64,000 nucleotides of DNA, from the NCBI RefSeq assembly GCF_055900595.2, contig NZ_CM148325.1. The stretch is one strand, 5' to 3'. Every line of letters begins with the position of its first letter. Positions within the stretch are counted from its first letter, which is position 1. This document shows positions 26,101 to 29,982 of the stretch, piece after piece. Position numbers: made by a program.

Positions 26101-29100
26101 GACAAAAGAGCTGACAGGTAAAGCCATGTTTATGGCGCTCAGGAGCCAGCGCCCACCTGCCGGGCTAATCCACCACTCCGATCGAGGTTCACAGTACTGC
26201 GCATACGATTACCGGGTCATCCAGGAGCAGTTTGGTCTGAAAACATCAATGTCGCGTAAAGGTAACTGTTACGACAACGCTCCGATGGAAAGCTTCTGGG
26301 GAACGCTGAAAAATGAGAGCCTGAGCCACTATCGTTTTAATAGCCGGGATGAGGCCATCTCAGTAATACGGGAATACATTGAGATTTTCTACAATCGTCA
26401 GCGTCGTCACTCTCGTCTGGGGAATATCTCCCCGGCAGCCTTCAGGGAAAAATATCATCAGATGGCTGCTTAAAAAAAGAACAAATGGTAGTGTCCGCTA
26501 TTGCCAGTACACCTCAGGATGCCGTCCGTCTCTTCTGCCGCTGGCCGCAGTTGCCTGCGTTTATGCTTCATTAATCATCATCGGGTTCGGATGTCCTAAT
26601 CACGGTTAATTATGTTCGGCCCTTCATGCTGCCGGTTTTGCAGCGCTACTACGGCGTCGGTAGCACACTGGCAGAGCGGCAGATCTCCCGGGGTAATTCG
26701 CACGACTTTCCTGCTTATGCCTGTCGGCTGTACGTCACCGCGTTCCGTGTGAGTATTGGGCTTTGGTGATTTGTGCCGCCTTAGCCGCTTCCTGTTCGTC
26801 AGGCCAGCATTTTGCATCCGGCTTCCTTCAGATTTCACCTCGCGATGAACATCCTTGCCTTCCGCTAACATTTCCCCTCACCGGGTGTTTGGAGAACTTT
26901 CACCTCTTAGTCGTTCTTCAGCCACCACAGTTGAAGAACAGCGCCAGTCACGGCGCACACAAAAAACGCGTAGTGAATACACTACGCGTCAGACTTTTTA
27001 TTTTTGTTAATTATAATTAAATGAATTTCACGTTAATTTTCAGATAGCGTTCCGGAAATTGATCTAACTCTTTTACAGCCTCAGGAACTTCATCTATTGT
27101 CACGACTTTGCTCACGATATCAGCCGGATTAATATTCAGCGTTGATAACATTTGCAGGGCTTCTTCAAATTCACCGGCACTGGTACGGGAACCACGTAAA
27201 TCTAGTTCTTTAAAGGTAATTAGATTAGTTGGTAACGATGTTTCCTGCTTTGGCCAACCAGTATAGGCTATACGCCCTGCAAATGAGGCCAGATCCAGGG
27301 TACTTCTGATTGCGCTATTTGCACCAGAGGCTTCCACCACAACCTGAGCCATCCTCCCTTGTGTAATATCTTTCACTGCCTCAATAACATTAGCTTTTGC
27401 GGAGTTTACTACATAAGGTACGCCGAGCGATTTCGCGTATTGCAACCGTTCATCGACAATATCAACCAGAATGGGAGTTGCTTTATAGTTCAACGAACTC
27501 AGGGCCGCCATAAGTCCAATAGCGCCTGCACCAATAATGACGACATGTTCACCTGCTTTCAATTGTGCTCGATGTAATGCGTGTAGGGCAATAGTTAAGG
27601 GTTCAGCCAGTGGCGCCATCTCTGACGGTACATTGTCAGGAATTTTGTGAATTAAGTGAGCCGGATGCGAAACCACTTCTTGCATAGCGCCATCAATATG
27701 TACGCCGATGACTTTTAAGTTCTCGCAGCAATTAGTTCTACCTACAGAACATGGATAACAGTGACCGCAATAAACATAGGGATCTACAATAACCCGGTCG
27801 CCCTGTTTGATATTTTGTGGTACCCCCTCACCGGTTTCCAGAACAATCCCGGTGACTTCATGTCCAATAATTCTCGGATAAGTTACCAGTGGGTTAGTAC
27901 CACGAAATGCACCGATGTCAGAACCACAAATTCCCGCTGCATCCACTTTAATTAAAACTTCATTATCTTTTCTTACTGGATAATCGACCAGACGGGTAGC
28001 AATTTCACCAGGTTTATTGATGTACACAGCTTTGACTTTCATTGACTTTCAATCCTTTATTTTTAACAAAAATGAATACCAGCAGACTTGAAATGATTGC
28101 TATGGCACCTGCAAGATAGAATGCGTAATCATATTTACCACTGAACTGGACAATAAAACCGGTTACCAATGGACCAATAATGCCGGAAATATTTGCCAGA
28201 CCGTGCATCGCACCGCCTACGCTACCTACTTTATCTTTATGCACTACATCCTGAATAACAGCCCAATAAATAGGTCCAGTTAGATAAAGCAGGAATAAGG
28301 AAACAGACATCAGCGTAATCGCACTACCAATAGAGGTAACAGTTCCGGAAACAGCGACACAAACCGCGGCCCCCGCAAGGCAACTGCCGAGAATTAAACG
28401 GCGAGAAAGTAAGGCATTTCCCGTAATACGATAAATAAAGTCAGAGCAGACGCCACCTAACACCATGCCAATTGCCCCAATAAACCACGGGATAACAGTT
28501 GCAATACTAATTTCTTTAATATCAATGTGTAATGAATGATTCAAATAGCTTGGAAACCAAGTAAGAAAGAAAAATAGAATATAGTTATAGCTAAAAAATG
28601 CCAGCGTGGTCGCCCATACCATCGGCTGCTTCATGTAATAACCAAGCGAAGGTGTACCTTTACCATCTTCGGCTAGAATAATATCGTCATGGTTTTCGAA
28701 ATCGACACGTTCTTCCGCTGCCAGACGTTTACTTTTTGACGGTTTATCACTGACAAAGAAGTACCACAGTAATACCCAAACTAGGCCAAATATAAATATG
28801 ATCCCAAACGCCGGACGCCAGCCAAGTGATATTGCCAGCAAGCCAACGACCGGACCAGAAATAGCGCCACCAAGTGGTGAACCAGCACTAAAAATACCGA
28901 TAGCTGTTGCCGACTCTTTACGCGAGATCCAGTTATTAATAATTTTATTTCCTGCTGCACTAACCGGGCCCTCTGCCATACCAAATAAAACACGTACGGC
29001 AAGCATTGTCCATAATCCGGTGACCAGACCGGTCATACCACAAAAAACAGACCACAACAGTGCAGCAACCAAAAATACTGTTTTGGGTCCAACTTTGTCA

Positions 29101-29982
29101 CTGGCCCAACCGCCAATGAAGTTAAATAAAGCATAACCAACGAAAAATGCGCTGAAAATCATCCCCATTTCAGCAGCATTAAAGCCTAACTCTTTTTCGA
29201 TAAGTGGGGCCGTAATCGATAATGCAGAACGATCCATATAGTTCAGCATGTAAACTATAAACAGAAGAAAAACGATAATCCACCCCATGGTTTTTCTTTT
29301 CATGATATTTCCTCTTATTGTGGTCTAGCGGCCTGACCACAATATTTAATATTTATTTTTAGATCATCATAAAAAGAAGGGTTTTGTGATCAATATAACA
29401 AAAATGGGATAACCAGTGTTCAATAACAATTATAATCACTCTCTAGTTGTATGATTTTATTTACTCTATTTTGAGTGATTAATATGTAAGACAGTATGAC
29501 TTTCCGGGAGAGAGGCTCTGATCAACGTGGTAGCTTTAACGCGGGTTAGCACCAAGGCCAGTACCGCATAGGTTAGCTGGCGCTAGCCGATGTGGCTGAC
29601 AAATGGGAGCTTCGTCAGTTCAAAGAAACGCCGGAACAGCGCTTCGCGCTGGAGCAGGAACATCTGCAGCCGTTACCGGATACAGACTTCGATACCAGTT
29701 ACTTCGACATCCGCCATGTGTCCTGGGACCCGCTATAACGAAGTTGGAGGTAATCAGTACAGCGTTCCCGAAATGCTGTGTGGTCAGCCAGTCTCGATAC
29801 GAATATCGCTGAACGATGAGTTGCGGATCTACAGTAATGAGAAACTGGTGGCCTCACATCGCCTCTGCTCAGTGTCGTCTGGCTAGCAGATAGTACCGGA
29901 ACCTCACGCCCCGCTCTGGCAGCAGATCAGTCAGGTGGAACATCGACCACTGAGTGCCTATGAGGAGCTGTTGTGATGCATG

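What the first reader, a model, noticed from the sequence alone, without database searches (positions are those of the whole stretch)
27017..29303. Orphan dehydrogenase-transporter module without a linked regulator
A Zn-dependent MDR dehydrogenase and an MFS anion:cation symporter overlap by 29 bp, indicating translational coupling, with a strong terminator downstream. No regulator or further pathway genes are adjacent; IS fragments flank both sides. This is probably the remnant of a larger sugar-acid or polyol utilisation locus.
Basis: inference. Interest (0 to 1): 0.3.

Follow-up and report, generated by a model that had tools for sequence, protein, structure and literature searches.

The report
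Split L-gulonate uptake and oxidation module
This is an ordinary accessory sugar-acid module of E. coli, most likely for importing L-gulonate and oxidising it to D-fructuronate; its own regulator gene is still present but was pushed 11.5 kb away by mobile DNA.

Summary
Two intact minus-strand genes, a Zn-dependent MDR dehydrogenase (27017-28042) and an MFS anion:cation symporter (28014-29303), overlap by 29 nt. A hairpin terminator follows them and IS fragments flank them.

A cognate GntR/FadR regulator exists intact at 14772-15443. In 50 other E. coli genomes and plasmids it sits 58 bp from the dehydrogenase, across a shared hairpin. In the window, an 11.5-kb block of mobile DNA lies in that spacer. 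The block starts with a group II intron fragment directly after the terminator's T-run.

The dehydrogenase is 64% identical over its full length to H. influenzae GulD, the characterised L-gulonate 5-dehydrogenase. Its 82-88% orthologues in Citrobacter and Salmonella enterica sit in an MFS-gulD-uxuA-uxuB operon with the same convergent regulator.

E. coli and S. diarizonae carry a three-gene form without uxuAB. Klebsiella grimontii has an analogous minimal TRAP-gulD-regulator locus. uxuAB is present in 5403 of 5426 E. coli genomes.

The best reading is a self-sufficient L-gulonate feeder into the core hexuronate pathway, now physically split and decaying in some strains. It is a new member of a known kind, and interest is low.

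The parts
14171..14680 (+). 3' remnant of a GGDEF-domain gene. In the intact locus this gene precedes the regulator. Homology to the intact locus begins here.
   Evidence: blastn of L002 10666-11962 matches window 14171-15463 at 90.4%. L002 annotation places the GGDEF CDS at 9773-11176. The end coordinate is approximate.
14772..15443 (+). Cognate GntR/FadR-subfamily transcriptional regulator (223 aa, intact), displaced from the operon.
   Evidence: Pfam GntR (3e-19) plus FCD (7e-22). It is 92.4% aa identical to the regulator adjacent to the dehydrogenase in E. coli 3R and pRmtB1_005237, with dN/dS 0.23. It is 72.8-76.3% aa identical to the Citrobacter and Salmonella regulators at the same position.
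15464..26960 (.). 11.5-kb block of mobile and foreign DNA inserted into the 58-bp regulator-dehydrogenase spacer. It contains an IS4 end fragment, IS3-family fragments, an autotransporter gene interrupted by IS10, IS30, and a group II intron fragment.
   Evidence: The breakpoints come from alignment to the intact locus. The contents come from FY10 annotation of the near-identical sequence and from Rfam.
26474..26960 (-). 5' fragment of a group II intron on the same strand as the operon. It begins (GTGCG) within 2 nt of the breakpoint, directly after the terminator's T-run, and is cut off at 26473 by an IS3-family element.
   Evidence: Rfam RF02001 group-II-D1D4-3 scores 89.3 bits against a gathering score of 32 at 26698-26849 (-). 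Copies about 91% identical elsewhere in E. coli run into maturase/RT ORFs.
26965..26990 (-). Intrinsic terminator hairpin of the operon. In the intact locus it is shared bidirectionally with the regulator gene.
   Evidence: The scan finds 11 pairs, 6 of them GC, followed by a T-run. The same hairpin lies between the two genes in L002.
27017..28042 (-). gulD-like Zn-dependent MDR dehydrogenase, a predicted NAD+-dependent L-gulonate 5-dehydrogenase (product D-fructuronate).
   Evidence: It is 64% identical, with no gaps over 339 aa, to H. influenzae GulD Q57517. The Zn-ligand and GxGxxG motifs are conserved in that alignment. Orthologues are co-operonic with uxuA and uxuB.
28014..29303 (-). ACS-family MFS transporter, a predicted L-gulonate:H+ symporter.
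   Evidence: MFS_1 at 2e-65. TIGR00893 scores 329 bits. The DgoT (6E9N) alignment conserves D46/R47/E133 as D24/R25/E111. It is 93-98% aa identical across E. coli, Citrobacter and Salmonella, with dN/dS about 0.03.
29319..29341 (.). Perfect palindrome TGTGGTC-N9-GACCACA immediately upstream of the MFS ribosome-binding site. It is the probable operator of the GntR/FadR regulator.
   Evidence: The palindrome, together with flanking bases as far as the MFS start codon, is nearly invariant in E. coli (both alleles), S. diarizonae and two Citrobacter species, while the rest of the intergenic region diverges. It occurs once in the window.
29366..29393 (-). Sigma-70-like promoter (TTGATC-16-TATGAT) of the MFS-dehydrogenase operon.
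   Evidence: The consensus scan finds a 9/12 match. It lies inside the conserved upstream block, and homology to the intact locus extends to 29485.

Best explanation
The two genes are the transport and first-enzyme half of a horizontally acquired three-gene L-gulonate module: a GntR/FadR regulator, an ACS-type MFS symporter and a GulD-type dehydrogenase.

Proposed mechanism (inferred). The MFS imports L-gulonate with protons. The dehydrogenase oxidises it at C5 with NAD+ to D-fructuronate. The core E. coli enzymes UxuB, UxuA, KdgK and Eda then convert this to pyruvate and glyceraldehyde 3-phosphate. The regulator probably represses the operon at the conserved palindrome in front of the MFS gene until the sugar acid or its product is present.

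Shown from sequence. In this window the regulator gene has been separated from the operon by 11.5 kb of mobile DNA. That DNA sits in the 58-bp spacer and begins with a group II intron fragment lodged just after the terminator. The regulator, the promoter-operator region and both structural genes are intact, so regulation in trans is expected to persist (inferred). The Citrobacter and S. enterica versions additionally carry their own uxuA-uxuB. The E. coli version is a minimal feeder that relies on the chromosomal copies.
For: ADH identity and context:
- It is 64% identical (81% positives, no gaps) to HiGulD Q57517.
- For HiGulD, L-gulonate to D-fructuronate activity, loss of growth on L-gulonate in the knockout, and induction were shown by Calhoun et al. 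2018 (PMC5788505).
- The Pasteurellaceae loci I retrieved (ADH 63-65% identical) read uxuA, regulator, then divergently ADH, TRAP, SDR mannonate oxidoreductase, kdgK and eda.
- The TRAP binding protein of one of them matches PDB 4PBQ, the L-gulonate-bound HiGulP, at E 4e-173.
- Orthologues at 82-88% identity in four Citrobacter species and in S. enterica sit in MFS-ADH-uxuA-uxuB with the convergent regulator. uxuA scores 759 bits on TIGR00695 and uxuB scores 972 bits on NF011611, fructuronate reductase.

Minimal forms and downstream enzymes:
- uxuAB is present in 5403 of 5426 complete E. coli genomes.
- Minimal forms without uxuAB occur in E. coli 3R and on plasmids, in S. diarizonae and, with a TRAP transporter, in K. 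grimontii.

Transporter and regulator:
- The MFS conserves the DgoT residues D46/R47/E133.
- The palindrome and promoter are conserved across genera.

The split:
- L002 10666-11962 matches window 14171-15463, and L002 11957-14478 matches window 26961-29485.
- All 159 records of the window-type allele carry the two segments as separate places. Only the 50 records of the other allele are contiguous.
- A group II intron fragment sits at the junction.

Selection and origin:
- dN/dS against the sister allele is 0.10 for the ADH, 0.035 for the MFS and 0.23 for the regulator, at dS about 0.2.
- The module is 41% GC against 47% for the window as a whole.
Against: - No activity, transport or growth data exist for this protein pair, so the substrate is inferred from 64% identity plus the operon context of orthologues.
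- Homologues at 51-55% identity sit next to tagaturonate reductase and an altronate-dehydratase-like gene, which is an L-galactonate-type context. Specificity therefore shifts within this clade.
- The transporter scores below the curated TIGR00893 cut-off (329 against 395). No MFS L-gulonate carrier has been characterised, to my knowledge.
- The operator assignment rests on conservation only. No second copy of the palindrome lies near the regulator gene.
- In many E. coli genomes the MFS gene is interrupted by IS1 or the dehydrogenase by an IS3-family element. This suggests weak current selection.
- From my own knowledge, not tested here: E. coli K-12 already has LgoD, which is reported to act on L-gulonate. 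The module could therefore be redundant.
Confidence: 0.7

Rival explanations
1. It is an L-galactonate (LgoT/LgoD-like) module. The dehydrogenase oxidises L-galactonate to D-tagaturonate, which core UxaB and UxaA convert to KDG.
For: The architecture is the same as E. coli lgoR-lgoT-lgoD: a GntR-type regulator, an ACS MFS and a Zn-MDR dehydrogenase. The ADH is 36% identical to LgoD. Homologues at 51-55% identity are adjacent to tagaturonate reductase (671 bits) and an altronate-dehydratase-like gene. A paper title cited reports LgoD as usable with both L-galactonate and L-gulonate, so enzymes of this kind can be promiscuous.
Against: The nearest orthologues (82-88%) are co-operonic with uxuA and uxuB, not uxaB and uxaA. 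Identity to the characterised GulD is 64%, against 36% to LgoD. The MFS is only 28% identical to LgoT, and the regulator is barely similar to LgoR.
Confidence: 0.12
2. It is a functionless, decaying remnant. The genes are intact by chance and are either silent or expressed without control, because the locus was broken up by mobile elements.
For: The island is saturated with IS fragments. The regulator is displaced in every genome carrying this allele. The MFS is interrupted by IS1 (H39-H45, H63-H68) or the dehydrogenase by an IS3-family element (H102) in other strains. Only 203 of 5426 genomes carry the DNA at all.
Against: Both ORFs are full length, and the promoter, palindrome and terminator are intact. 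The regulator ORF is intact, with its native 600 bp of upstream sequence. dN/dS is 0.03-0.10 for the structural genes. 154 of the 204 matching records are at least 99% identical to the window's two genes.
Confidence: 0.13
3. It is a polyol (sorbitol/xylitol-type) dehydrogenase with a polyol transporter.
For: Sorbitol, xylitol and L-arabinitol dehydrogenases appear among the PDB hits at E 1e-37 to 1e-39.
Against: The transporter belongs to the anion:cation symporter group and keeps the Arg (R25) that aligns with DgoT R47. To my knowledge, DgoT R47 binds the substrate carboxylate. The best relatives are sugar-acid dehydrogenases (RspB, LgoD, GulD) in hexuronate contexts.
Confidence: 0.03

Closest known systems
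Haemophilus influenzae Rd KW20 L-gulonate catabolic cluster (uxuA, uxuR, gulD/HI0053, gulPQM, kdgK, uxuB, kdgA; Calhoun et al. 2018, PMC5788505)
   Same: The first enzyme is the same: 64% identical, full length, with Zn and NAD motifs conserved. Both have a GntR-family regulator beside the dehydrogenase. Both follow the same pathway logic of L-gulonate to D-fructuronate to D-mannonate to KDG.
   Different: Uptake here is by a single-component ACS-type MFS rather than a TRAP system. The downstream enzymes are not in the locus and must come from the core genome. In the Citrobacter and Salmonella versions UxuB is the long mannitol-dehydrogenase type, not the SDR type. The regulator is convergent rather than divergent, and in the window it is displaced by 11.5 kb.
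E. coli K-12 lgoR-lgoT-lgoD (L-galactonate) locus
   Same: Both are three-part feeder modules: a GntR-type regulator, an ACS-family MFS symporter and a Zn-dependent MDR 5-dehydrogenase. In both, the product enters the core hexuronate pathway.
   Different: The two are not orthologous: 36% identity for the dehydrogenase, 28% for the MFS, and only weak HTH similarity for the regulator. The gene order also differs. The predicted product is D-fructuronate rather than D-tagaturonate.
E. coli RspB (PDB 4ILK), a Zn-dependent dehydrogenase encoded next to the enolase-superfamily protein RspA
   Same: It is the closest solved structure (E 4e-60, 35% identity over the full length), and the fold and Zn-binding motifs are shared. 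JGI labels some 61-67%-identical homologues of the window protein 'L-gulonate 5-dehydrogenase'. That is an annotation, not a test.
   Different: It is a different paralogue in a different genomic context (rspA, with no dedicated MFS).
Citrobacter and Salmonella enterica MFS-gulD-uxuA-uxuB plus regulator loci (uncharacterised, found here)
   Same: These are true orthologues: MFS 93-94%, ADH 82-88% and regulator 73-76% aa identical. They share the 29-nt overlap and the promoter palindrome.
   Different: They carry their own uxuA and uxuB between the dehydrogenase and the regulator, which the E. coli form lacks.

Membership tests
Zn-dependent medium-chain dehydrogenase/reductase (MDR) superfamily | ADH_N (GroES-like) plus ADH_zinc_N (Rossmann) domains | tested here: met
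   PF08240 at 100.5 bits and PF00107 at 93.4 bits, both above their cut-offs.
Zn-dependent medium-chain dehydrogenase/reductase (MDR) superfamily | Catalytic Zn ligands (Cys in GICGSD, His-Glu in GHE), four structural-Zn cysteines, a GxGxxG motif and an acidic residue after beta-2 (NAD preference) | tested here: met
   C39, H61/E62, C92/C95/C98/C106, G171-G176 (GAGAIG) and D194 are all present. All are conserved in the alignments to HiGulD and RspB. The roles of these residues come from general MDR knowledge.
L-gulonate 5-dehydrogenase (GulD type, as characterised in H. influenzae) | Close full-length sequence relationship to the characterised enzyme Q57517 | tested here: met
   64% identity, 81% positives and no gaps over 339 aa. 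This is above the roughly 60% level that the authors use for isofunctional clusters of the binding protein. That threshold was not calibrated for this enzyme.
L-gulonate 5-dehydrogenase (GulD type, as characterised in H. influenzae) | Genomic linkage to mannonate dehydratase and fructuronate reductase, a sugar-acid transporter and a GntR regulator | tested here: inconclusive
   The feature is met in the orthologues: Citrobacter and S. enterica have MFS-ADH-uxuA-uxuB plus the regulator. In the window itself only the transporter is adjacent. The regulator is 11.5 kb away, and uxuAB is elsewhere in the genome (core).
L-gulonate 5-dehydrogenase (GulD type, as characterised in H. influenzae) | NAD+-dependent oxidation of L-gulonate at C5 to D-fructuronate | not testable with these tools
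   This needs an enzyme assay.
NCBIfam equivalogs: PRK10083 Zn-dependent oxidoreductase, L-threonine 3-dehydrogenase, L-idonate 5-dehydrogenase, galactitol-1-phosphate 5-dehydrogenase | Score at or above the curated cut-off | tested here: not met
   Scores against cut-offs are 243 vs 376, 207 vs 458, 151 vs 469 and 149 vs 550.
Anion:cation symporter (ACS) family of MFS transporters (DgoT-like) | MFS_1 fold and membership of the TIGR00893 subfamily | tested here: inconclusive
   MFS_1 scores 221 bits. TIGR00893 is by far the best model, but at 329 bits it falls below its cut-off of 395.
Anion:cation symporter (ACS) family of MFS transporters (DgoT-like) | Residues of DgoT tied to proton coupling and carboxylate binding (D46, R47, E133) | tested here: met
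   These align to D24, R25 and E111 in the phmmer alignment to 6E9N. The roles of the residues are from my knowledge of the DgoT structure paper and were not re-read here.
GntR family, FadR subfamily regulators | N-terminal GntR winged-helix domain plus C-terminal FCD domain | tested here: met
   PF00392 at 69 bits and PF07729 at 79 bits for window 14772-15443.
E. coli Lgo (L-galactonate) system | Orthology of all three components to LgoT, LgoR and LgoD | tested here: not met
   28%, weak HTH-only similarity, and 36% identity respectively.
Group II intron (fragment at the junction) | Domain I-IV RNA structure, with an intron-encoded reverse transcriptase | tested here: inconclusive
   RF02001 scores 89 bits against a gathering score of 32, so the RNA part is met. 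No RT ORF and no domain V/VI remain in the window, so it is a truncated fragment. I did not determine the intron's class.

The most novel reading that the evidence does not exclude
The MFS protein would be the first ACS-family L-gulonate:H+ symporter. The mobile three-gene unit occurs on islands and on IS1-flanked plasmid segments, and many of the carrier strains listed here come from poultry and humans. It could give carrier E. coli access to host-derived L-gulonate, an intermediate of the animal glucuronate/ascorbate route, using only the core UxuAB pathway. That would make it a small, transferable niche-fitness determinant.
Probability: 0.35. Interest if true: 0.35.

Novelty: new member of a known kind. 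Interest (0 to 1): 0.2.

Why it matters
RefSeq gives these two proteins only generic names, 'zinc-binding alcohol dehydrogenase family protein' and 'MFS transporter'. This analysis gives them a specific, testable function. It also shows that apparent orphan status in IS-rich islands can result from mobile-DNA insertion rather than loss of the regulator. The junction is a possible example of a group II intron lodging immediately after an intrinsic terminator and then seeding further insertions. None of this changes current understanding of sugar-acid catabolism.

Tried and rejected
- Polarising the three-gene against the five-gene form. A neighbour-joining tree of MFS+ADH DNA from E. coli (two alleles), three Citrobacter species, S. 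diarizonae, S. enterica and one metagenomic contig is star-like at 77-81% pairwise identity. The ADH-regulator spacers of E. coli and S. diarizonae are unrelated hairpins. Whether uxuAB was lost or gained stays open.
- Testing whether the 22 nt between the left breakpoint and the IS4 end (15464-15485) are the 3' end of the same group II intron. The intron in strain FY10 is unrelated. The about 91% identical copy I fetched (L051) is itself truncated. The 22-mer occurs in no other fetched locus. This is unresolved.
- Looking for a second copy of the palindrome near the regulator, which would suggest autoregulation. None was found, and the pattern search has no statistical power on its own.
- Reading Wichelecki et al. 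2014 (PMC4159206) on L-gulonate and L-idonate pathways and RspB. The paper is not held, so statements about it are second-hand from PMC5507952.
- Membership of the YdjJ, Tdh, IdnD and GatD equivalogs, and orthology to LgoD, LgoT and LgoR. These were rejected on scores and identities.
- No structure prediction was run. The sequence relationships were already decisive.
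Full report
**1. What is there**

The window is an E. coli genomic island next to tRNA-Arg and yfdC. A stretch spanning the finding, window 26500-30100, is 100% identical to strain FY10.

The two reported ORFs are real: 27017..28042 (-) at 341 aa and 28014..29303 (-) at 429 aa, overlapping by 29 nt. The first has ADH_N and ADH_zinc_N domains. The second is an MFS_1 transporter whose best NCBIfam model is the D-galactonate-transporter / anion:cation symporter subfamily.

An 11-pair hairpin followed by a T-run lies 26 nt after the dehydrogenase stop. RefSeq annotation of the identical FY10 DNA shows IS3-family and IS30 sequences on one side and IS21-family istA/istB fragments on the other.

**2. 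The regulator is not missing**

The two-gene DNA occurs in 203 of 5426 complete E. coli genomes, in two alleles. One is at least 99% identical to the window (154 records). The other is about 94% identical (50 records, on chromosomes and on plasmids of roughly 100 kb).

In the 94% allele a 223-aa FadR/GntR regulator lies convergent to the dehydrogenase, 58 bp from its stop. The two genes share one hairpin.

blastn maps that contiguous 3.8-kb segment onto two separate pieces of the window. L002 10666-11962 matches window 14171-15463. L002 11957-14478 matches window 26961-29485.

Window ORF 14772..15443 (+) is the same regulator. It is intact, has GntR plus FCD domains and is 92.4% aa identical to the L002 copy. 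It keeps 600 bp of its native upstream sequence and the ancestral convergent orientation.

All 159 records of the window-type allele carry the two segments as separate places. Only the 50 records of the other allele are contiguous. The distance and orientation vary between strains: 18.5 kb and inverted in FY10, 7 kb in SC492. This is expected in an island saturated with insertion sequences.

**3. How the split happened**

Homology to the intact locus breaks inside the spacer, exactly after the T-run of the terminator. On the operon strand the next bases are GTGCG, followed by a sequence that matches Rfam group-II-D1D4-3 at 89 bits against a gathering score of 32.

The first inserted element next to the operon is therefore the 5' part of a group II intron, on the same strand and directly behind an intrinsic terminator. 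To my knowledge some bacterial group II introns home to exactly such sites. I did not determine the class of this one.

The intron is cut at 26473 by an IS3-family element. The rest of the 11.5 kb is an IS4 end, IS3-family fragments, an autotransporter gene interrupted by IS10, and IS30. I could not show whether the 22 nt at the other junction are the intron's 3' end.

**4. What the module does**

*The dehydrogenase*
- The closest solved structure is E. coli RspB, at 35% identity. LgoD, the L-galactonate 5-dehydrogenase, is 36% identical.
- Much closer is H. influenzae HI_0053 / Q57517: 64% identity, no gaps, all Zn and NAD motifs conserved.
- Calhoun et al. 2018 showed that this protein, GulD, oxidises L-gulonate at C5 to D-fructuronate. 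They also showed that its knockout cannot grow on L-gulonate and that the cluster is induced by L-gulonate (PMC5788505).

*Genomic context of relatives*
- A scan of one genome per species returned 41 related loci.
- Pasteurellaceae loci (ADH 63-65% identical) read uxuA, regulator, then divergently ADH, DctPQM, SDR mannonate oxidoreductase, kdgK and eda. One of their binding proteins matches PDB 4PBQ, the L-gulonate complex of HiGulP, at E 4e-173.
- Four Citrobacter species (ADH 86-88% identical) and S. enterica (82%) have the operon MFS-ADH-uxuA-uxuB with the same convergent regulator. The uxuA product scores 759 bits on TIGR00695 and the uxuB product scores 972 bits on the fructuronate reductase model.
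- A dehydrogenase whose operon partners are fructuronate reductase and mannonate dehydratase most simply makes D-fructuronate. L-gulonate is the known aldonic acid that yields it by oxidation at C5.

*The transporter*
- It keeps the residues that align with D46, R47 and E133 of DgoT. This fits proton-coupled uptake of a carboxylate.

*A caution on specificity*
- Homologues at 51-55% identity sit beside tagaturonate reductase and an altronate-dehydratase-like gene, which is an L-galactonate-type context.
- Substrate specificity therefore shifts within this clade. L-galactonate remains a live alternative for the window's enzyme.

**5. Remnant or complete unit?**

Both descriptions are partly true.

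Evidence for a remnant:
- Relative to Citrobacter and S. enterica, the E. coli form lacks uxuA-uxuB.
- Relative to its sister allele, the window copy has lost physical linkage to its regulator.

Evidence for a complete unit:
- The three-gene form occurs intact in other E. coli, where on plasmids it is bracketed by two IS1 copies.
- It also occurs in S. diarizonae.
- K. grimontii has an analogous chromosomal locus of gulD, DctPQM and a GntR regulator with no uxu genes nearby.
- uxuAB is present in 5403 of 5426 E. coli genomes, so the downstream steps are supplied by the core genome. The lgo locus appears to feed the hexuronate pathway in the same way.

The phylogeny is star-like and does not show whether uxuAB was lost or gained.

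**6. Is it still working?**

In favour:
- All three ORFs are intact.
- A sigma-70-like promoter and a perfect palindrome (TGTGGTC-N9-GACCACA, 29319-29341) lie just upstream of the MFS ribosome-binding site. The palindrome and the bases between it and the start codon are nearly invariant from E. coli to Citrobacter, in an otherwise diverging spacer.
- dN/dS against the sister allele is 0.10 for the dehydrogenase, 0.035 for the MFS and 0.23 for the regulator, at dS about 0.2.

Against:
- IS1 interrupts the MFS gene, and an IS3-family element interrupts the dehydrogenase gene, in a number of other carrier genomes.
- The module sits in heavily rearranged DNA.

I expect it to be functional in this window and regulated in trans. 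This is inference.

**7. Verdict**

This is an ordinary accessory catabolic module of foreign origin, at 41% GC against 47% for the window. It is a new, MFS-coupled member of the known L-gulonate (GulD) kind.

I put confidence in the L-gulonate assignment at about 0.7. Confidence in the displaced-regulator reconstruction is above 0.9. Interest is low.

Noticed in passing
window 31577-37401 (+): Three co-directional genes match the Shango anti-phage system: SngA (TerB_N/TerB/TerB_C, 339 bits), SngB (BrxC/D-type ATPase, 622 bits) and SngC (DEAD/DEAH helicase, 922 bits) in PADLOC. This is a known defence system carried on the same island.
   Followed up: partly
window 20279-21607: An IS10 copy (402-aa transposase ORF at 20386-21594; Rfam RNA-OUT at 20324-20393) interrupts the autotransporter gene. 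The 9-bp target duplication TGCTCGGCA lies at 20270-20278 and 21608-21616. Strain FY10 has the same gene uninterrupted at 3498 bp.
   Followed up: yes
window 26474-26960 (-): A truncated group II intron (Rfam RF02001, 89 bits) begins directly after the operon's intrinsic terminator. Copies about 91% identical elsewhere in E. coli run into maturase/RT ORFs. I did not recover the full-length element, its class or its 3' end.
   Followed up: partly
window 15980-16102 (+): A full-length Rfam match to isrC, an Hfq-binding sRNA (150 bits), overlaps the start of the IS3-family ORF at about 15985 inside the inserted block. It probably reflects the origin of that Rfam family in an IS-like element.
   Followed up: no
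window 37883-38899 (+) and 39543-41903 (+): A 338-aa ORF has no Pfam or PADLOC hit. A 786-aa protein has only an HsdR N-terminal domain. Both lie just downstream of the Shango genes and might be further defence genes.
   Followed up: no
window 44637-46077 (-): An integrase ORF and a tRNA (Rfam hit at 46006-46077; annotated tRNA-Arg in FY10) lie next to yfdC and mark the island's attachment end.
   Followed up: partly
L003 8279-13685 (plasmid pRmtB1_005237) and other plasmids of about 100 kb: The sister allele (GGDEF remnant, regulator, dehydrogenase, MFS) is bracketed by two directly oriented IS1 copies on plasmids that also carry colicin remnants. This looks like a composite-transposon cargo. 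30 of the E. coli places are on plasmids, and PLSDB lists one in Shigella flexneri.
   Followed up: partly
other E. coli genomes (H39-H45, H63-H68, H95-H107, H102): The MFS gene is repeatedly interrupted by IS1A, sometimes with a deletion. In one genome an IS3-family element sits in the dehydrogenase gene. The module is being inactivated in some lineages.
   Followed up: partly
L053/L054 8001-12659 (Klebsiella grimontii): A chromosomal gulD homologue (66% identical to the window protein) lies with DctPQM and a convergent GntR/FCD regulator near kefB and crp, with no uxu genes adjacent. It is a TRAP-type minimal counterpart of the E. coli module.
   Followed up: partly
window 13759-14015 and 29583-30357: IS21-family fragments lie just outside both outer ends of the ancestral segment, beyond the GGDEF remnant on one side and beyond the MFS promoter on the other (coordinates mapped from FY10 annotation). 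I did not test whether they belong to one element or reflect how the segment was captured.
   Followed up: no
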